Assembly: GCA_041489255.1 (NCBI GenBank)
Contig: JBGPQV010000021.1
Coordinates: 1 to 56,958, forward strand
Direction: 5' to 3'
DNA: 56,958 nt
Source of the DNA: Thermoplasmata archaeon
Lineage (GTDB): Archaea > Thermoplasmatota > Thermoplasmata > RBG-16-68-12 > JAFNFQ01
Shown here: in pieces, positions 7,512-14,453 of the stretch
Layout of the letters: the number at the start of each line of letters is the position of its first letter
Numbering within the stretch: position 1 is the first letter of the stretch
Program-made: the position numbers and the translations under genes
The notes under the pieces: model-generated
The model's input: only the letters and a program-made list of their open reading frames with translations
What the model was told of the DNA's origin: nothing
The model's database searches: none

Positions 7512-10436
7512 TTGAGACTAAGAACTGGAGTTTTCGTTAGCTTGATGACAGCGGCCATGCTAATGTCTCTGCTGGCGCCCCTGACTCGGGCATTCATACC
7601 CGAGCCGTACGAGCTTTATGGGGTCGCAAAGCTCGACACCGGCGTGGTTCTTGATGATGGCTCGCCAATAAGGTCCTTTGTCGACGGAGTCGACTACTCG
7701 AACAAGACGTCAGTGTTCAGCCGACCGGGCAACACCGACGGGTACTTCGACATCGACACCTACGGCAACTACAGAACGAACGCAACCGACCCGGGCACTC
7801 CCTGGATAAAAGAGGGCGCCGATGACAACGAACCGATCATGTACAGTTGGGGCGATTTCAGCAACAACACGCAGATCGGCGGCCCGTCACAGCCCTGGCT
7901 ACAGGCCAAAGTGTTCCAGGAAACGCACGACTGGCAGACCGGTCTGCCGCCGCAGGCGGGAGACCTGAACCTGGCGCCCGACGCCCAGCAGCCACCGCTG
8001 CTGAAGATCTACAGCGTGACGACGAACAGCACGTATGCGCCACTTACTGACTACGTCTGGCTCTGCAACCCGACCAACCAGAACGTCGACGCTTCGCAGT
8101 TCTACCTGCAGAAGGATGTCCTTGGGGATGTCAACGGACCGCAGGTGCAGGTGCCCGTCGGTACCATTGGACCCTACAAGAAGTACTTCGTCGACACGGC
8201 CAGTCTGGACTACTTCAACGAGGCAGGCGACAACCTGAAGCTCGTCTGGAAGAACACGGCCAGTCCGACCGCGGATTTTGGCGGCAATGACATCGTGCTG
8301 GACAGGGTCGAGTTCAACAAGTCCGCCGGTGGTGCGCTCAACTGGGAGCCGGGAAACACGATAATGAACAATGAGCCCGCGCCAGACAGAGGTTTCCAGA
8401 TCAACAGATCCTCGATCTGCCGCGACACGAACTCAGTGCAGCAAGATTTCTTCATCGAGGTCGAAACAAGGTTGAACTTCCGGCCGACAGCGCCGGACCC
8501 GGTGTGCATCGAGGGTCTGTGCAACTGGAATGTCGACAGCAGGCTGTTCCACCTCGTCAAGCTGACCAACTTCCGTATCAATTGGACGCATCATGACCCG
8601 GATGGCGATCCCCAAACTCAGGCCAACATCCGCATATCAACTGCACCTAACGGCGTTGGTGTGATGTGGAATGGCAATGTGGTCGGAGCGACTGCGTTCA
8701 TTGATTATACCGGCCTCCCATTGCTGAAGGGCAACAATTATTGCTTCTCTGTGCAGACCAAGGACGCCGCTCCCGTCTTCGGCCCATGGGGAGAACTGTG
8801 CTTCCGCACCAACGGTTTGCCGGCACCGATAAACAAGCTTTGGCCATCCAACGGCTGGCAGACTTCTCCCAAATCCGACCAACAAGTGTGGTGGACTCTG
8901 GCCACTGACCCGGACCCGGGCGATCTTCTCAACTACACCTGGAAAGTCAACACGACGGCATCCATGGTCGCTCCGCTCTACAGCGGCACGACCACCACCA
9001 ACACCTCGACCCCGTTCCTGACACTCCCGACATCGACCTACTTCTGGTGTGTAAACACCAGTGACGGGTGGGAGTGGTTGAATGGCTGCGGGTCGACTTG
9101 GCAGTTCACCACCTCGACGCCCCCGCCAGCTCCGACTGCGACGGACCTGGAGGTCGACGGCCATGCGTTTGCCGACGCATACCTGCAGCACGTCACGAAC
9201 CGCGTCCCCGTGTTCACATGGACGTTCAACCCGACGACTGGCAGGACGCAGACAGCCTTCCATATCCAGGTCTACCGGCAAACAGGTCCCCTCCTGATGT
9301 GGGAACTCAACAACACCGGAGCTGGCGGTGACCTGTCAACGGCCACCTACAACTCGGACAGCACCGGCACCGCCCTCGTGAACGGCACGTGCTACTACTT
9401 CCAGGTGAAGGTCCGGGACAGCCTCAGCCCGCAGCTATGGAGCGTCGACTGGGGCACGCCGCTGGACTTCTGCATCAATACGCCGCCACCGACGCCGACG
9501 CCTCTCGCCCCGGCGGATGACAGCGCCCGGCTTGTGGGTTCGACTATCCTCTACTGGAGCACCGAGATTGATGCGGACACGGGCGACGTCGTCACGTACG
9601 ATTACTGCATCGACACCGCCATTGATCCGCCATACCCGACCTGCAACATCGTCCACACCACGGCAACCGCCAACAACTCGGCCGCCTTCACGACTGTCGC
9701 GAACAACTACATCTGGGCCGTGAGGGCTTACGACAGCTACGAATATTCCGCCTGGAGCACGATTTGGAACTTCACGGCGTACACAGCGCCGACCAACACC
9801 GCACCGACGATCACCATCACCGCGCCCGCTGGTGGAGAACGCCTCCTGCAGGGGAGCACGTTCACAATAAGATGGACGATGCACGATGACCAAACCGCCG
9901 ATTCCGCCCTTGTCGTTGTCGTGACGTACAGCGTTGGCGGTGGGGCACCAATCACGATAGCCACGAACTGGGTCGGGGTAACATCCGGCTCGTGGACGGT
10001 GCCGTCCGATGTGGACTCGTCCAACGTGAGGATAACCGCCACGGTCACCGACACGGGTGGCCTGACTGGCACGAGCCAGTCGCCGCAGTTCACGATCTAC
10101 AAAGAGCCCGCGGGGGAATTCCCACTGATGTGGGTGCTCCTCATAATCATCATCGTGGTGGTTTTGGCGATCGTCCTCCTACTCTTGATGAAACGCAGGA
10201 AGCCGAAGGAGGAGGAAGAGGCGGCCGCGCCGCCAGCGGCAGAGGAGGCACCGCCAGCCGAGGAAGAGGAGATGGTCGTGGAGGAGGCACCAGCGCCCCC
10301 GCCAAAGGCCGCCCCGAAGCCGGCAGTGGTACCAGCCGCCACAAAGGCCCCGACGAAGACCAAGGAATGCGCGAGTTGCGGCACGATAGTGAGCGTGACG
10401 GACAAAGAATGCTTCATGTGCGGGGCCAAGCTGTAG
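7512..10436 (+). CDS. Large membrane-anchored cell-surface protein (signal peptide, lamin-tail-like and FN3/Ig-like modules, C-terminal TM, Pro/Ala/Glu linker, zinc ribbon)
   Basis: N-terminal hydrophobic signal, four W..D.D...Y.W/F.V modules, many N-x-S/T sequons, TM WVLLIIIIVVVLAIVLLLLM-KRRK, terminal CASCG..CFMCG. Confidence 0.85.
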   Translation: MRLRTGVFVSLMTAAMLMSLLAPLTRAFIPEPYELYGVAKLDTGVVLDDGSPIRSFVDGVDYSNKTSVFSRPGNTDGYFDIDTYGNYRTNATDPGTPWIKEGADDNEPIMYSWGDFSNNTQIGGPSQPWLQAKVFQETHDWQTGLPPQAGDLNLAPDAQQPPLLKIYSVTTNSTYAPLTDYVWLCNPTNQNVDASQFYLQKDVLGDVNGPQVQVPVGTIGPYKKYFVDTASLDYFNEAGDNLKLVWKNTASPTADFGGNDIVLDRVEFNKSAGGALNWEPGNTIMNNEPAPDRGFQINRSSICRDTNSVQQDFFIEVETRLNFRPTAPDPVCIEGLCNWNVDSRLFHLVKLTNFRINWTHHDPDGDPQTQANIRISTAPNGVGVMWNGNVVGATAFIDYTGLPLLKGNNYCFSVQTKDAAPVFGPWGELCFRTNGLPAPINKLWPSNGWQTSPKSDQQVWWTLATDPDPGDLLNYTWKVNTTASMVAPLYSGTTTTNTSTPFLTLPTSTYFWCVNTSDGWEWLNGCGSTWQFTTSTPPPAPTATDLEVDGHAFADAYLQHVTNRVPVFTWTFNPTTGRTQTAFHIQVYRQTGPLLMWELNNTGAGGDLSTATYNSDSTGTALVNGTCYYFQVKVRDSLSPQLWSVDWGTPLDFCINTPPPTPTPLAPADDSARLVGSTILYWSTEIDADTGDVVTYDYCIDTAIDPPYPTCNIVHTTATANNSAAFTTVANNYIWAVRAYDSYEYSAWSTIWNFTAYTAPTNTAPTITITAPAGGERLLQGSTFTIRWTMHDDQTADSALVVVVTYSVGGGAPITIATNWVGVTSGSWTVPSDVDSSNVRITATVTDTGGLTGTSQSPQFTIYKEPAGEFPLMWVLLIIIIVVVLAIVLLLLMKRRKPKEEEEAAAPPAAEEAPPAEEEEMVVEEAPAPPPKAAPKPAVVPAATKAPTKTKECASCGTIVSVTDKECFMCGAKL

Positions 10437-10447
10437 GCCCTGCACCC

Positions 10448-10472
10448 TTTCCATTTTTCTTTCTTTTCATTC
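10448..10472 (+). terminator. Oligo-T archaeal terminator
   Basis: tttccatttttctttcttttcatt just after the stop codon. Confidence 0.5.
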
Positions 10473-10529
10473 CCCCAGCGAGAGCCATCTGGAAAGTCTA
10501 TTAACCCCCGCCCCTCTTCGCCCCCCGAG

Positions 10530-12278
10530 ATGAAGAAGAGCGAGGACTTCGGCGAATGGTACATCGAGGTCATCGACAAGGCGAACCTCAGCGACAAGAG
10601 GTACCCAATCAAGGGGATGAACGTCTGGACGCCTTACGGCTGGGCTGTGATGAGGCGCATTGACGAGTTCATCCGCCAGGAGATGGCGGCAACTGGCCAC
10701 GACGAGGTCTGCTTCCCCCTGCTCATCCCCGAGACGGAGTTCAAGAAGGAGTCGAAGCACATCAAGGGGTTCGAGGAGGGCGTCTTCTGGGTCACCCACG
10801 CGGGGCTCAACCCCCTCGACGTCAAGCTGCTCCTGAGACCGACCAGCGAGACGGCGATGTATCCCATGTTCGCGCTCTGGATCCGGTCGCACGCGGACCT
10901 GCCGTTGAAGATCTACCAGATAGTGAACGTGTTCAGGTACGAGACGAAGGTGACCAGGGCGTTCATGCGCGTCAGGGAGATACACTTCTTCGAATCACAC
11001 ACATGCCACGCGACCTTCGAGGAGGCCGAGGCGCAAATCCGCGAGGACCTGGAGATAATGGACCGGGTGGCGCGGCGCCTTGCATTGCCGTACCTGTTGA
11101 TGAGGAGGCCCGAGTGGGACAAGTTTCCCGGGGCGTTCTACACGACGGCGGTGGACGTCTACGTCGCGGGGGCCGGCAGGACCCTGCAGGTCGGCGGCAT
11201 ACACCAGTACAAGGATAACTTCGCGCGCGCCTACGACGTGAAGTTCGAGAAGGATATCTCCCAAGCGGACTTCGCGGCCTACATCGCCAGACTCCTCGAG
11301 AGTATGGGCTACGACGACATCAGGTTCAGGGCGGTCTCACCCGACGCGGTCCTGGCCAGGCCTGACGTCGAGGCCAAGAAAGGCGGGAAGCGCGTGGCGG
11401 TGGAGGTGAAGCGCAGGATCAAGGATGATGCGGACGGGAAGGCCCTGGAAGCGATCTTCGACCAGATGAAGGATCCATCGATCCATCACATCCTGATAAC
11501 CCACGACGTGCCGAAGGAGATGGCGGAGCGACTGACGGCCAAAGGCGTCGAAATCTGGAACGAGACGAAGGTGGCCGAGATGGCCAAGGCGGCGGGGCAG
11601 GAGCCGCTCGTATTCCACCAGTACGTGCACCAGACCACCTACGGGATGAGCGAGAGGCTCATCGGGACGATAGTGGCGGTGCACGGCGATGATAAAGGGC
11701 TGGTCTTCCCGCCGGACGTCGCCCCGACGCAGATCGTGGTCGTCCCGATCCCCGAGAAGGGCAGGCAGGAGATCATCGCAGAGGAGTCGCGGAGGCTCAG
11801 GGACGAGCTTGCCGGCATCTTCCGCGTGCACCTCGACGACAGGGACATCCGCCCAGGCAGCAAGTACTACGAATGGGAGGCGAAGGGCGTCCCCCTCAGG
11901 ATCGAGCTGGGACCGAAGGACCTGCAGAAGGACGTCGTCACTGTCGTTCGGAGGGACACGTCGATAAGGTCGACGTTGCCGAGGAAAGACTTGGTCTCCA
12001 GCGTGGCCAAGCTCCTCGACGCGATACAGGGCGGCATGTGGAAGCGCGAGGAAAAGAGGCTGATAGACTCGATCGTGGACGTAAAGCACATGTCCGGGTT
12101 CAAAGAGGCGCTCAACCGCGCGTCCTGGTGCGGCTCAGAGGAATGCGGGCACGAAATCGAGAACAAGACCGGGATGAGCGTCCTCGGCACTCCCGCCAAA
12201 GAAGAGAAGCCGGAGGGGCCGTGCGTAGTCTGCGGCAAGCCGGCGAAGCTGGTCATCTATGTGGCCAAGACCTTCTAG
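10530..12278 (+). CDS. proS: Prolyl-tRNA synthetase (archaeal/eukaryotic type) with an in-frame ~120-aa nuclease-like insertion
   Basis: LRPTSET, motif 2 FRYETK..FMRVREI, motif 3 QTTYGMSERLIG, anticodon-binding domain, C-terminal WCGSEEC/CVVCG zinc domain; 582 aa versus the usual ~460-480. Confidence 0.97.
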   Translation: MKKSEDFGEWYIEVIDKANLSDKRYPIKGMNVWTPYGWAVMRRIDEFIRQEMAATGHDEVCFPLLIPETEFKKESKHIKGFEEGVFWVTHAGLNPLDVKLLLRPTSETAMYPMFALWIRSHADLPLKIYQIVNVFRYETKVTRAFMRVREIHFFESHTCHATFEEAEAQIREDLEIMDRVARRLALPYLLMRRPEWDKFPGAFYTTAVDVYVAGAGRTLQVGGIHQYKDNFARAYDVKFEKDISQADFAAYIARLLESMGYDDIRFRAVSPDAVLARPDVEAKKGGKRVAVEVKRRIKDDADGKALEAIFDQMKDPSIHHILITHDVPKEMAERLTAKGVEIWNETKVAEMAKAAGQEPLVFHQYVHQTTYGMSERLIGTIVAVHGDDKGLVFPPDVAPTQIVVVPIPEKGRQEIIAEESRRLRDELAGIFRVHLDDRDIRPGSKYYEWEAKGVPLRIELGPKDLQKDVVTVVRRDTSIRSTLPRKDLVSSVAKLLDAIQGGMWKREEKRLIDSIVDVKHMSGFKEALNRASWCGSEECGHEIENKTGMSVLGTPAKEEKPEGPCVVCGKPAKLVIYVAKTF

Positions 12279-12487
12279 GGCTTCCTGTAGAGAAGCATCC
12301 CCGTAAGGCCGAACCCCACGAGAACTACCGTCACCGCGTAGACGCCGATGTTCTCCGTCGTGAGCGGGTTCCAGGTCCCGTAGAAGATGCCCCACGAGAA
12401 GTAGAACAGTATGCCCAGGAAAAGGAGCAGGGTGTAGAAGGCGAATGCGAGCTTGCGTGTGAAGACCGACTCCTCTTCCTTAGGCAT
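12275..12487 (-). CDS. Small 2-TM membrane protein
   Basis: 70 aa with two hydrophobic helices and host-like codon use. Confidence 0.7.
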   Translation of the reverse strand: MPKEEESVFTRKLAFAFYTLLLFLGILFYFSWGIFYGTWNPLTTENIGVYAVTVVLVGFGLTGMLLYRKP

Positions 12488-13421: not shown

Positions 13422-14453
13422 ATGAGAGACCCGAGCTTGGTTGCTGTTGTGCCGAAGAAAAACGCGGAGAGGTTGCGGAAGCATCTCCGCCTGGCGCGCC
13501 TCCTTGACTCGGGTAGGAAGATCGTTGTGCGCGGGGCAACGGTGCTCATCCCGATCTCCCGCCATCCGGGGAATCTCACTGAGTTTGCCGCCGAGGTTGC
13601 GGAGGATACTGGACTCAGGGAAAGAGAGACGCGGTCCACACCGTTCCAACTCATCACGGACGCGGTTGCGGTGGAACCAAGGCTGAAGCGGTTCCTACCG
13701 GACAAGTGGGAGATGATCGGGGACGTTCTGGTGCTCAAGCTGCCGCGCGAGCTGGACGACTGCAAGGTGGCGGTCGCGGAGGGATACGCGCGAGTGCTCG
13801 GCGCGAAGGCGGTCCTTCAGGACGTTGCGGGAATCGAAGGGGATTGGCGGGTCCCGCAAGTCGAGAAGATATGGGGCGGGAGCACGGAGACGGTCCATCT
13901 GGCGGACGGTGTCAGGTTCAAGCTCGATGCCGCCAAGGTGATGTTCTCATCCGGCAACCTGCCTGAAAGGATGCGCATGGCCCGCATTTCGCGACCCGGG
14001 GAGACCGTGGTCGACATGTTTTCGGGAATAGGCTATTTCGCCATACCGATGGCCGTCCACTCCCGCCCGGAGAGGATCTATGCTTGTGAGGTCAACCCAG
14101 TCGCTTTCCACTACCTCGAAGAGAATGCGAGAATCAACCGTGTCGAGGACTTGACGCCGTTGTTGGGCGACTGCAGGGAAACAGCCCCGGAAGGCGTCGC
14201 CGATAGAATCATCATGGGCTACCTAAGAGCGCAAGGTTTCTTGGACAAGGCGATGATGATCGCCGGGCCAGAGGCAGTCCTGCACTATCACGAAGCCTGC
14301 CCCAACGAGCTCATCGGCACGCGCCCGTGGTCCACGGTGAGAGAGGCGGCGGAGAAAGCCGGAAGGAGCATCGAGCAGCTTCATCTCCAACGTCTCAAGT
14401 CTTACGCTCCCGGCGTGTCCCACATCGTCCTCGATGCAAGAGTCTCTCGATGA
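13422..14453 (+). CDS. taw2: Taw2/TYW2 (Trm5/Met-10+ family) SAM-dependent tRNA wyosine-modifying transferase
   Basis: MFSSGNLPERMRM, VVDMFSGIGYFAIP, EVNP, ADRIIMGY, LHYHE. Confidence 0.8.
   Translation: MRDPSLVAVVPKKNAERLRKHLRLARLLDSGRKIVVRGATVLIPISRHPGNLTEFAAEVAEDTGLRERETRSTPFQLITDAVAVEPRLKRFLPDKWEMIGDVLVLKLPRELDDCKVAVAEGYARVLGAKAVLQDVAGIEGDWRVPQVEKIWGGSTETVHLADGVRFKLDAAKVMFSSGNLPERMRMARISRPGETVVDMFSGIGYFAIPMAVHSRPERIYACEVNPVAFHYLEENARINRVEDLTPLLGDCRETAPEGVADRIIMGYLRAQGFLDKAMMIAGPEAVLHYHEACPNELIGTRPWSTVREAAEKAGRSIEQLHLQRLKSYAPGVSHIVLDARVSR

What the first reader, a model, noticed from the sequence alone, without database searches (positions are those of the whole stretch)
11253..11615. Mrr-like PD-(D/E)xK nuclease domain inserted in frame inside prolyl-tRNA synthetase
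Seen: between ...ARAYDVKFEK and HQYVHQTTYGMSER (motif 3), where archaeal ProRS has only a short hairpin, there are about 120 extra residues: ISQADFAAYIARLLESMGYDDI...RPDVEAKKGGKRVAVEVKR...HILIT...GVEIWNETKVAEM. This follows the Mrr_cat pattern (F...A.LL..MGY, PD/D, V(E/Q).K, ILIT, IELID) with PD and ExK intact, although the helix-1 Glu appears replaced (DFAA). It lacks intein ends (no N-terminal C/S, no HN), its codon style matches the host, and all ProRS motifs are intact. Known: archaeal-type ProRS lacks the bacterial INS editing domain that lies between motifs 2 and 3, and some PD-(D/E)xK domains cut tRNA. Inference: a synthetase-nuclease chimera I do not recognise as described. It could be a tRNA quality-control/binding module, an infection-triggered nuclease guarded by an essential enzyme, or a domesticated selfish endonuclease.
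Basis: partly seen in the sequence, partly recalled or inferred. Interest (0 to 1): 0.9.

Follow-up and report, generated by a model that had tools for sequence, protein, structure and literature searches.

The report
Nuclease-fold domain inserted in prolyl-tRNA synthetase
The only prolyl-tRNA synthetase of this uncultured sediment archaeon carries a real, inherited, roughly 120-residue restriction-endonuclease-fold domain spliced into a surface hairpin, an apparently undescribed architecture whose nuclease residues look partly eroded.

Summary
Window 10530-12278 (+) encodes a 582-aa archaeal-type ProRS (TIGR00408, 511 bits). Residues 242-362 (11253-11615) are an in-frame insert. It matches Pfam Mrr_cat above the curated cut-off and folds (AF2, pLDDT 82.7) as a restriction-endonuclease fold (Foldseek: NucS, AF1548, EndoMS, Hjc).

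The insert replaces a 5-residue hairpin tip just before motif 3. It was absent from the ProRS of the 37 other order genomes that had a match, and from 78 of 79 species loci. Independent contigs span it without gaps, so it is not a chimera. It is the genome's only ProRS.

The four insert-bearing sequences form one clade (100/99). Insert dN/dS is 0.086, against 0.075 and 0.112 for the two flanks.

The helix-1 Glu, nearly invariant in the closest stand-alone relatives, is Ala in all 13 insert-bearing sequences read. A diverged relative (56% identity in the insert) has VIR in place of ExK.

There is no sign of an intein, an intron or recent mobility.

Best reading: a domesticated nuclease-fold module, probably no longer catalytic, serving as a binding or structural appendage. 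An active nuclease is not excluded. This is a new variant of a known kind, of moderate interest.

The parts
10530..12278 (+). proS: archaeal/eukaryote-type prolyl-tRNA synthetase, 582 aa plus stop codon. It is the only ProRS found in the genome.
   Evidence: ORF. TIGR00408, 511 bits against a 437 cut-off. PF00587, PF03129, PF09180; the full-length AF2 model matches 1nj2, 1nj1, 1nj8 and 1h4s; no second ProRS above cut-off in G000 (96.5% complete).
10530..11252 (+). ProRS residues 1-241: class II catalytic core up to the strand before the hairpin tip.
   Evidence: PF00587 covers residues 96-242; orthologues align to query 1-242 at 63-73% identity; invariant ProRS columns are retained.
11253..11615 (+). 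In-frame insert, residues 242-362: Mrr_cat / PD-(D/E)xK restriction-endonuclease-fold domain. It replaces the 5-residue hairpin tip of the orthologues.
   Evidence: Mrr_cat 29.9 bits, cut-off 21. AF2 pLDDT 82.7, order a1-b1-b2-b3-a2-b4-a3-b5-a4. Foldseek hits 2vld, 1y88, 5gke, Hjc, Can2; orthologue hairpin; dN/dS 0.086.
11274..11276 (+). Ala249 (insert position 8), at the place of the helix-1 Glu of the stand-alone relatives.
   Evidence: E8 is nearly invariant in the alignment, and the three ProRS-insert rows have Ala; this position aligns with the Glu of Hjc ST1444. Ala in 12 of 12 sequences with the insert from the two protein clusters; L105 also has Ala.
11364..11366 (+). Asp279 (insert position 38), the PD aspartate at the start of strand b2.
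   Evidence: invariant column D38; b2 spans positions 39-43. Asp in all sequences read.
11403..11411 (+). Glu292-Val293-Lys294 (insert positions 51-53), the (D/E)xK motif on strand b3. It reads VIR in the diverged relative P0004.
11616..12275 (+). ProRS residues 363-582: motif-3 strand and helix (HQYVHQTTYGMSER), anticodon-binding domain and C-terminal zinc-binding domain.
   Evidence: PF03129 covers 401-494 and PF09180 covers 525-581; orthologues align to query 363-582.

Best explanation
SHOWN. The gene is the organism's single, functional archaeal-type proline-tRNA ligase. In the common ancestor of a narrow Methanomassiliicoccales-order lineage (the window's genus plus one more diverged metagenomic lineage), a small Mrr-type restriction-endonuclease-fold domain was inserted in frame. 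It sits at the tip of the beta-hairpin made by the motif-3 strand and the strand before it, replacing about 5 residues with 121. It has since been inherited vertically, adapted to host codon use, and kept under purifying selection as strong as on the synthetase body.

INFERRED. The domain is translated as part of ProRS and projects from the catalytic domain as an autonomous fold, with its N- and C-termini tethered to the two hairpin strands. It most likely no longer works as a nuclease. The helix-1 acidic residue of its family is lost in every copy, and the ExK motif is lost in one lineage, while the fold, the KGGKR b2-b3 turn and the RRRI(K/R)D segment are kept. I therefore read it as a domesticated, non-catalytic nuclease-fold module. 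It would add a binding surface to ProRS, for tRNA or other nucleic acid or for a partner protein. Aminoacylation itself proceeds through the unchanged class II active site.
For: Anatomy.

Fold: AF2 of the insert with a 40-row alignment gives pLDDT 82.7 and canonical a-b-b-b-a-b order. Foldseek against the PDB gives 4 hits at E<=0.001, all PD-(D/E)xK proteins (NucS 2vld chains A and B, AF1548 1y88, EndoMS 5gke), followed by BspD6I, Card1, Hjc and Can2. In the full-length model the insert blocks have pLDDT 59-89, and the body matches ProRS structures.

Real DNA: a 13,318-nt contig in run X10 and a 2,914-nt contig in run X5 span 10900-12000 with no gaps. The 90% cluster has 12 members from separate assemblies.

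Essential context: there is no other ProRS in G000.

Rarity and single origin: the insert is in 2 of the 39 order genomes that have a ProRS match, 1 of 79 species loci and 2 of 401 class genomes. It is in 2 protein clusters among 5.8 billion. The body-only tree puts the 4 insert-bearing rows in one clade, 100/99.

Selection: window against L105 gives dN/dS of 0.086 for the insert (Nd 14.0, Sd 34.0), against 0.075 and 0.112 for the flanks.

Catalytic erosion: position 8 is Ala in all insert-bearing sequences, but is a nearly invariant Glu in the 37 stand-alone relatives aligned. It aligns with the helix-1 Glu of Hjc ST1444. P0004 has VIR for EVK.

Literature: Steczkiewicz et al. 2012 (PMC3424549, passages read) state that the helix-1 Glu often contributes to the active site. 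[quoted passage not shown]
Against: In the window's own lineage the core D...ExK triad is intact in 11 of 11 full-length members of the 90% cluster, and also in L105. Many PD-(D/E)xK enzymes work without a helix-1 Glu, so activity is not excluded.

The insert is net acidic (K+R 19, D+E 22, pI 5.6), which is not what a general nucleic-acid binder usually looks like.

At the deeper divergence the insert is the fastest-evolving part: P0001 against P0004 gives 67/119 identical, against 210/241 and 156/220 for the flanks. That fits a less constrained passenger.

The position of the domain relative to the tRNA, the active site and the dimer axis could not be determined, because no model coordinates were available. 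No expression data exist.
Confidence: 0.5

Rival explanations
1. Tolerated passenger. An accidental in-frame insertion of a small Mrr-like gene fragment landed in a permissive surface hairpin. It has no function of its own. It persists because a precise deletion is improbable, and because mutations that unfold it would damage the only ProRS.
For: The site is a hairpin tip where orthologues have a variable 5-residue turn. Catalytic residues erode. The insert is the least conserved segment at deeper divergence, 56% against 87% and 71%. P0004 tolerates a 2-residue deletion before b4. Distribution is narrow.
Against: Within the genus-level comparison, dN/dS of the insert (0.086) is as low as in the synthetase body (0.075 and 0.112). 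That is tighter than a folding-only constraint would usually give. The insert has survived a divergence of 21% in the ProRS body without decay or loss in any of the insert-bearing sequences found.
Confidence: 0.25
2. Active nuclease fused to ProRS. The domain still cuts DNA or RNA (for example tRNA), so the synthetase doubles as a nuclease with a role in quality control, stress response or defence.
For: D279 and E292-x-K294 are intact on b2/b3 in 11 of 11 full-length members of the window's 90% cluster, and in L105. The insert is under strong purifying selection. The nearest stand-alone relatives are canonical Mrr_cat proteins that also match Mrr-like nuclease models of defence systems (ZorD, PDC-S02).
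Against: The helix-1 Glu is lost in all copies. ExK is replaced by VIR in P0004, while the rest of the domain is kept there, so catalysis is not what is conserved across the clade. The insert itself has no PADLOC match. It scores only 26-30 bits on Mrr_cat, against about 89 bits for the stand-alone relatives.
Confidence: 0.17
3. Selfish element: an intein-less homing endonuclease, an intein, or an RNA intron carrying an endonuclease ORF, which still moves or is removed from the mature product.
For: Essential genes and conserved sites next to catalytic motifs are typical homes of inteins and homing endonucleases (established knowledge). PD-(D/E)xK homing endonucleases exist (recalled).
Against: Intein ends are absent: the insert starts with Asp-Ile-Ser and ends with Val-Phe followed by His. 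There is no Hint or intein Pfam match at E<=1, and the fold is that of a restriction endonuclease. The RNA of 11225-11645 folds no better than shuffles (z 0.10), and Rfam gives no match. The insert replaces host residues rather than interrupting them cleanly. The divergence of the insert tracks that of the host gene, and one gain explains the tree. There is no second copy in the genome. The 9-nt repeat CACCAGTAC at 11202 and 11616 encodes HQY in two segments of the ProRS body, so I do not read it as a target-site duplication.
Confidence: 0.05
4. Artefact: an assembly or binning chimera, or a pseudogene.
For: The window is from a metagenome-assembled genome.
Against: Independent assemblies carry the same junctions. 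These are G001 (99% identity), four JGI metagenome contigs, 12 cluster members, and Logan contigs of two other studies that span the stretch without gaps. The frame is open. Selection is purifying. It is the sole ProRS.
Confidence: 0.01

Closest known systems
Bacterial-type ProRS with the INS (YbaK-like) editing domain inserted between motifs 2 and 3
   Same: An autonomous domain of 100-200 residues is inserted in frame into the class II catalytic domain of ProRS between motifs 2 and 3, and the aminoacylation site stays intact.
   Different: INS has a YbaK/tRNA_edit fold, whereas this insert has a restriction-endonuclease fold. P0001 does not match PF04073 at E<=1. By recalled sequence comparison (not tested here), INS enters the chain before the strand equivalent to LQVGGIHQY, whereas this insert sits two strands later, at the hairpin tip before motif 3. 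INS is ancient and widespread; this insert is confined to one small archaeal lineage.
Stand-alone ~172-aa Mrr_cat proteins with a C-terminal Cys-rich tail (P0005-P0047)
   Same: These are the closest sequence relatives of the insert (22-32% identity in alignment A3; the only representative hit was P0005 at E 1.5e-5). They share the Mrr_cat core and align end to end over the domain.
   Different: They are free-standing. They keep the helix-1 Glu, the Asp and QVK, and they carry a CxxC...C...H tail that the insert lacks. They score about 89 bits on Mrr_cat, against 26-30 bits for the insert.
Inactivated PD-(D/E)xK domains used as structural or binding modules (e.g. RecC; Pfam NA-iREase1, PF22722)
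   Same: A restriction-endonuclease fold is retained while catalytic residues are lost. Steczkiewicz et al. [quoted passage not shown]
   Different: The insert does not match PF22722 at E<=1. In the window's lineage only one of the four usual acidic or basic positions is lost. No such module has been reported inside an aminoacyl-tRNA synthetase in the texts searched.
Inteins with homing endonucleases in essential genes
   Same: A nuclease-related domain sits in frame inside a conserved essential gene, next to a catalytic motif.
   Different: There is no Hint fold, no Cys/Ser/Thr at the N-terminus and no His-Asn plus nucleophile at the C-terminus. Nothing indicates splicing or mobility.

Membership tests
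Archaeal/eukaryote-type prolyl-tRNA synthetase (TIGR00408 proS_fam_I) | Equivalog HMM score above the curated cut-off | tested here: met
   511 bits against a 437 cut-off, in two stretches that flank the insert.
Archaeal/eukaryote-type prolyl-tRNA synthetase (TIGR00408 proS_fam_I) | Class II core, HGTP anticodon-binding domain and ProRS C-terminal zinc domain, with the family's invariant residues | tested here: met
   PF00587, PF03129 and PF09180 are all above cut-off. P0001 carries every column that is invariant across the 40 aligned ProRS. The AF2 model matches 1nj2, 1nj8 and 1h4s with TMt about 0.8.
Archaeal/eukaryote-type prolyl-tRNA synthetase (TIGR00408 proS_fam_I) | Prolylation of tRNA-Pro | not testable with these tools
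   Inferred from its being the only ProRS in a 96.5%-complete genome.
Mrr_cat / PD-(D/E)xK restriction-endonuclease-like superfamily | Pfam PF04471 above the gathering score | tested here: met
   25.8 bits (whole protein) and 29.9 bits (insert alone) against a cut-off of 21, covering profile positions 3-114 of 115. P0004 scores 21.1 bits.
Mrr_cat / PD-(D/E)xK restriction-endonuclease-like superfamily | alpha-beta-beta-beta-alpha-beta core fold | tested here: met
   The AF2 secondary-structure order is H4-17, E21-25, E39-43, E46-55, H59-71, E77-85. The top Foldseek hits are all PD-(D/E)xK proteins.
Mrr_cat / PD-(D/E)xK restriction-endonuclease-like superfamily | Asp at the start of b2 and (D/E)xK on b3 | tested here: inconclusive
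   Present in the window, in 11 of 11 full-length members of its cluster, and in L105. In P0004 the Asp is kept but ExK reads VIR.
Mrr_cat / PD-(D/E)xK restriction-endonuclease-like superfamily | Helix-1 acidic residue, conserved in this branch of the family | tested here: not met
   Ala in all 13 insert-bearing sequences read. Glu is nearly invariant in the 37 stand-alone relatives, and the position aligns with the helix-1 Glu of Hjc ST1444.
Mrr_cat / PD-(D/E)xK restriction-endonuclease-like superfamily | Metal-dependent phosphodiesterase activity | not testable with these tools
   Needs biochemistry.
Intein | Hint fold, N-terminal Cys/Ser/Thr (or Ala), and C-terminal His-Asn followed by Cys/Ser/Thr | tested here: not met
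   The insert begins with Asp-Ile-Ser and ends with Val-Phe, and the next residue is His. No Hint or intein Pfam family matched at E<=1. The fold is that of a restriction endonuclease.
RNA intron (archaeal bulge-helix-bulge, group I or group II) | Structured RNA at or between the junctions, or a match to an intron family | tested here: not met
   The MFE of 11225-11645 is no better than shuffles (z 0.10; 53 of 100 shuffles fold at least as well). There are 0 Rfam matches at E<=1 in 10400-12400. The insert is in frame and under protein-level selection. A dedicated bulge-helix-bulge search was not run.
ProRS INS / YbaK editing domain (PF04073) | tRNA_edit fold or HMM match | tested here: not met
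   PF04073 is not among the matches of P0001 or P0002 at E<=1.
NA-iREase1 (PF22722) | HMM match above the cut-off | tested here: not met
   No match for P0001 or P0002 at E<=1. The stand-alone relatives P0005 and P0006 match at about 35 bits, as a second hit under Mrr_cat.

The most novel reading that the evidence does not exclude
The window-lineage insert, with D279 and E292-x-K294 intact, is a working nuclease physically coupled to the cell's only ProRS. It would cleave tRNA or DNA in response to the enzyme's substrate or charging state, which would make it a synthetase-gated nuclease for stress, quality control or abortive infection. No such coupling has been described for any aminoacyl-tRNA synthetase in the texts I searched.
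Probability: 0.12. Interest if true: 0.85.

Novelty: new variant of a known kind. Interest (0 to 1): 0.5.

Why it matters
Aminoacyl-tRNA synthetases are known to gain idiosyncratic insertion and appended domains that add editing, tRNA-binding or moonlighting functions. I found no report of a restriction-endonuclease-fold domain inside the catalytic core of a class II synthetase. In addition, the 2012 survey of the PD-(D/E)xK superfamily has 0 occurrences of 'synthetase' in its main text.

The case is recent, phylogenetically datable and maintained by selection. It captures a nuclease-fold domain being domesticated inside an essential enzyme, with catalytic residues at different stages of loss in sister lineages. 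It also marks the hairpin before motif 3 as a permissive site for domain insertion in ProRS, which is useful for engineering. If the domain were still active, it would be a new type of synthetase-coupled nuclease.

Tried and rejected
Position of the insert relative to tRNA, the active site and the dimer axis. Model coordinates are not exposed (one search shows no model files), so no geometry could be measured. One literature search for a description of this hairpin gave nothing usable.

Insert homodimer. Complex prediction with 2 copies of the insert and alignment A3 returned no answer (scores 0.23 and 0.26; the mark is 0.42). This is evidence neither for nor against binding.

Combined alignment of ProRS with stand-alone Mrr_cat sequences (A4). 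MAFFT spread the stand-alone proteins across the ProRS body, so A4 was discarded. The fold jobs used A3 (insert) and A5 (ProRS only).

Sequence search of the insert against PDB chains. Only chance-level hits (E 0.68 and 0.85). The profile search gave weak hits only (best E 0.035, AF1548) and was used solely to read motif correspondence.

The search for homologous proteins with the insert alone at near lengths. None of 31 candidates scored.

ESM Atlas. Scores of 0.75 and 0.81, which are leads only. No ProRS+Mrr_cat cluster was among those listed.

Expression. No RNA holder was listed by the look-up of sequencing runs, so splicing or expression could not be examined.

Joints. These skip 366 or 383 bases with 15 or 32 other letters in between, and rest on short contigs with sides of 21-35 letters. 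I read them as insert-less ProRS genes of other community members, not as an insert-less allele of this organism. This was not proven.

YbaK/ProX (PF04073) presence. Found in 4 of 41 order genomes, all in genus g7, and in neither g1 genome. It is uninformative for the insert.

Weak Mrr_cat-like hits elsewhere are ordinary terminal nuclease-like domains and unrelated to this finding. They are G000:C6 (17 bits, in a protein of at least 641 aa with no Pfam match) and G235:C20 (N-terminus of a TPR protein).

Supplementary files of papers were not consulted. The supplements of Steczkiewicz et al. 2012 list domain architectures and could mention such a fusion.

No donor for the insert could be identified. 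The best stand-alone relative is only 35% identical.
Full report
WHAT IS THERE. The window carries one long ORF at 10530..12278 on the + strand, giving a 582-aa protein. It is an archaeal/eukaryote-type prolyl-tRNA synthetase. NCBIfam TIGR00408 scores 511 bits against a cut-off of 437, in two stretches that break at about residue 249. Pfam finds the class II core (PF00587, residues 96-242), the anticodon-binding domain (PF03129, 401-494) and the ProRS C-terminal zinc domain (PF09180, 525-581).

Between the core and motif 3, residues 242-362 (window 11253-11615) match Pfam Mrr_cat (PF04471) over profile positions 3-114 of 115. The score is 25.8 bits in the whole protein and 29.9 bits for the segment alone, against a cut-off of 21.

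WHAT IT REPLACES. In the insert-less orthologues the chain reads ...AYDIKYEDEKGEHQYVHQTTFG.... Here it reads ...AYDVKFEK[DISQADF...EPLVF]HQYVHQTTYG.... Between the invariant Glu240 and His367 (invariant columns of the 40-row ProRS alignment) there are 126 residues here and 9 in the orthologues, a net gain of about 117. The insertion sits at the tip of the hairpin made by the motif-3 strand and the strand before it. From recalled sequence comparison, this is not the site of the bacterial INS editing domain, which enters the chain two strands earlier.

IS IT REAL DNA? The same junctions occur in the following places:
- a second species of the genus (G001, 99% identity over 1-582);
- four JGI metagenome contigs (100, 98, 98 and 91% identity over the insert);
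- 12 members of the 90% protein cluster, from separate assemblies with contigs up to 209 kb, three of them named only 'prolyl-tRNA synthetase';
- Logan contigs of other studies: a 13,318-nt contig (run X10, 32 differences, no gaps) and a 2,914-nt contig (run X5, 8 differences, no gaps), each spanning 10900-12000 in one piece.

GC (0.62) and GC3 (0.85) of the insert match the rest of the gene (0.61 and 0.63; 0.91 and 0.88) (profile). An assembly chimera is excluded for practical purposes.

IS IT THE WORKING ProRS? In G000 (96.5% complete) the only match above cut-off for TIGR00408 is this gene, and nothing reaches the cut-off for the bacterial type TIGR00409. The protein query finds only this locus plus a 30%-identical anticodon-binding domain of another synthetase. 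Every column that is invariant across the 40 aligned ProRS is kept. The full-length AF2 model (pLDDT 83.3) superposes on M. thermautotrophicus, M. jannaschii and T. thermophilus ProRS with TMt about 0.8. The enzyme must therefore function with the insert in place.

FOLD OF THE INSERT. I modelled the insert with a 40-row alignment. The rows were the three distinct insert variants plus 37 stand-alone relatives. AF2 gives pLDDT 82.7 and pTM 0.77, with the order a1(4-17)-b1(21-25)-b2(39-43)-b3(46-55)-a2(59-71)-b4(77-85)-a3-b5-a4. Foldseek against the PDB returns 4 hits at E<=0.001: NucS 2vld chains A and B, AF1548 1y88 and EndoMS 5gke. These are followed by R.BspD6I, Card1, Hjc and Can2, all restriction-endonuclease-fold proteins. 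Asp38 (Asp279) lies at the start of b2 and Glu51-x-Lys53 (292-294) lies on b3, as in the canonical active site described by Steczkiewicz et al. 2012 (PMC3424549, passages read).

DISTRIBUTION AND ORIGIN.
- Of 41 genomes of the order, 39 have a ProRS match. Only G000 and G001 (one genus, the only genus of its family in the set) have the insert. The others align to query 1-242 and 363-582 with about 10 nt between.
- Of 79 species loci from genome contigs, 1 (the G001 record) has the long form. The titles place these genomes in Thermoplasmata / Methanomassiliicoccales-like MAGs.
- Searching 401 genomes of the class with the insert alone gives strong matches in 2. The other six hits are weak (E 3e-4 to 8e-3) and lie in unrelated frames.
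- Among 5.8 billion protein clusters, two hold the insert inside a ProRS-length protein: the window's own cluster and P0004 (580 aa).
- Among 1.84 billion 50%-identity representatives, a single protein passes E<=0.001: P0005, a 175-aa stand-alone Mrr_cat protein at 35% identity.
- A profile search then recovers 44 proteins. Most are about 172 aa, with an Mrr_cat core plus a Cys-rich C-terminal tail.

A maximum-likelihood tree of the ProRS body alone, with the insert columns removed, has 40 rows: the 4 insert-bearing sequences and 36 insert-less ones picked by me from the 79 loci. It puts the four insert-bearing sequences in one clade with 100/99 support, so one gain suffices. Divergence of the insert tracks that of the body: 98%, 89% and 56% identity for the insert against 98%, 92% and 79% for the body. 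This is vertical inheritance. The genome holds no second copy of the insert. No donor could be named.

SELECTION. Nei-Gojobori estimates between the window and the 91%-identical metagenome variant L105 are as follows:
- insert: dN/dS 0.086 (Nd 14.0 over 280.8 sites; Sd 34.0 over 82.2 sites);
- N-terminal part: 0.075;
- C-terminal part: 0.112.

The closer pairs have too few changes to be informative. The insert is thus translated and constrained as protein. At the deeper divergence (P0001 against P0004) it is the fastest-changing part: 67/119 identical, against 210/241 and 156/220.

STATE OF THE ACTIVE SITE. This bears most on function. In the 37 stand-alone relatives the helix-1 Glu (FE), the Asp and QVK are nearly invariant. 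In a profile alignment they correspond to the Glu, PD and ExK of the Holliday-junction resolvase Hjc ST1444. That these four Hjc residues are catalytic is recalled, not tested here.

In all 13 insert-bearing sequences read, the helix-1 position is Ala. These are the 11 full-length members of the 90% cluster, P0004 and L105. Asp is kept in all of them. ExK is EVK in the window's cluster and in L105, but VIR in P0004. Yet P0004 keeps the rest of the domain, including the N-terminal DISQADFAA, LARPDV, the KGGKR turn between b2 and b3, RRRI(K/R)D after b3, AERL, KGVE-W and AKAAG-EPL.

What is conserved across the clade is therefore the fold and some surface segments, not the catalytic set. The insert scores only 26-30 bits on Mrr_cat, against about 89 bits for its stand-alone relatives. 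It matches no PADLOC model, whereas P0005 matches Mrr-like nuclease modules of ZorD and PDC-S02.

WHAT IT IS NOT.
- Not an intein. It starts with Asp-Ile-Ser and ends with Val-Phe before His. It has no Hint match and has a restriction-endonuclease fold.
- No evidence for an RNA intron. The RNA of 11225-11645 folds no better than shuffles (z 0.10), and there is no Rfam match at E<=1. The segment is in frame and under protein-level selection. A dedicated bulge-helix-bulge search was not run.
- Not flanked by a convincing target-site duplication. The 9-nt repeat CACCAGTAC at 11202 and 11616 encodes HQY in two segments of the ProRS body.
- Not linked to YbaK-type editing. PF04073 is found in 4 of 41 genomes of the order, all in another genus.

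MOST LIKELY MECHANISM. Shown: a single ancestral in-frame capture of a small Mrr-type domain at a permissive hairpin tip of the only ProRS, followed by vertical inheritance under purifying selection.

Inferred: the domain projects from the catalytic domain as an autonomous fold and has lost, or is losing, nuclease chemistry. It is kept as a non-catalytic module that offers an extra binding surface for tRNA, another nucleic acid or a partner protein. This is the fate described for other inactivated members of the superfamily. I give this reading about 0.5.

The rivals are:
- a functionless passenger constrained only by folding (about 0.25). It is favoured by the fast deep divergence and the acidic net charge (pI 5.6), and disfavoured by the low dN/dS;
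- a still-active nuclease in the window's lineage (about 0.17);
- a mobile or spliced element (about 0.05);
- an artefact (about 0.01).

LIMITS. No coordinates were available, so I could not say where the domain sits relative to the tRNA or the dimer axis. No RNA runs hold the stretch. The homodimer prediction gave no answer. Supplements of papers were not read.

NOVELTY. Idiosyncratic domain insertions in aminoacyl-tRNA synthetases are a known kind. I found no description of a restriction-endonuclease-fold insert in a synthetase. The three full-text searches that combined synthetase and nuclease terms found 10, 0 and 5 papers. Judged from their titles and abstract starts, none was relevant. 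A fourth search found none, probably because of phrase matching. The superfamily survey PMC3424549 has 0 occurrences of 'synthetase' in its main text. I rate this a new variant of a known kind. Interest is about 0.5: it is real, rare and evolutionarily neat, but it is narrow in distribution and its catalytic set is eroding.

Noticed in passing
P0005-P0047 (proteins; alignment A3): The closest stand-alone relatives form a tight family of ~172-aa proteins. They have a canonical Mrr_cat core (FE...D...QVK) followed by a conserved Cys-rich tail (CxxC ... WC ... H ... YC..HQ) that looks like a zinc ribbon. Most are unnamed or called 'hypothetical' or 'restriction endonuclease' by their sources. They also match Pfam NA-iREase1 as a second hit.
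   Followed up: partly
window 10900-12000, runs X5 and X8 (tables 5 and 5c): Short contigs in the same sediment metagenomes join position 11249 to 11616 with 15 other letters in between, that is a 5-codon turn instead of the insert. I read them as insert-less ProRS genes of related community members. An insert-less allele of the same species was not excluded.
   Followed up: no
window 13422-14453 (+): Trm5/Taw2-type tRNA methyltransferase (PF02475 185 bits, TYW2_N_2, Trm5_N) lies about 1.1 kb downstream of proS. It looks ordinary.
   Followed up: partly
window 7512-10436 (+): A 974-aa predicted surface protein with Ig-like domains (Ig_Rha78A_N, Big_7), a hydrophobic stretch near the C-terminus, a Glu/Ala/Pro-rich tail and a terminal CxxC...CxxC motif.
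   Followed up: partly
G000:C6:27027-27230 (L014): A weak Mrr_cat-like match (17 bits, below cut-off) at the C-terminus of a large protein (at least 641 aa) with no Pfam family at E<=0.001. It is possibly a degenerate nuclease-fold tail on an uncharacterised protein.
   Followed up: partly
window 11202-11210 and 11616-11624: An exact 9-nt direct repeat, CACCAGTAC, lies 414 nt apart and brackets the insert region. Both copies encode His-Gln-Tyr in ProRS body segments, so I do not read it as a target-site duplication.
   Followed up: yes
G011:C3:88923-89315: A relative's genome has a second, partial ProRS-like match (query 3-133, 66% identity) with one in-frame TAG, about 1 kb from its full ProRS. 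It may be a fragment or a duplicated pseudogene.
   Followed up: no
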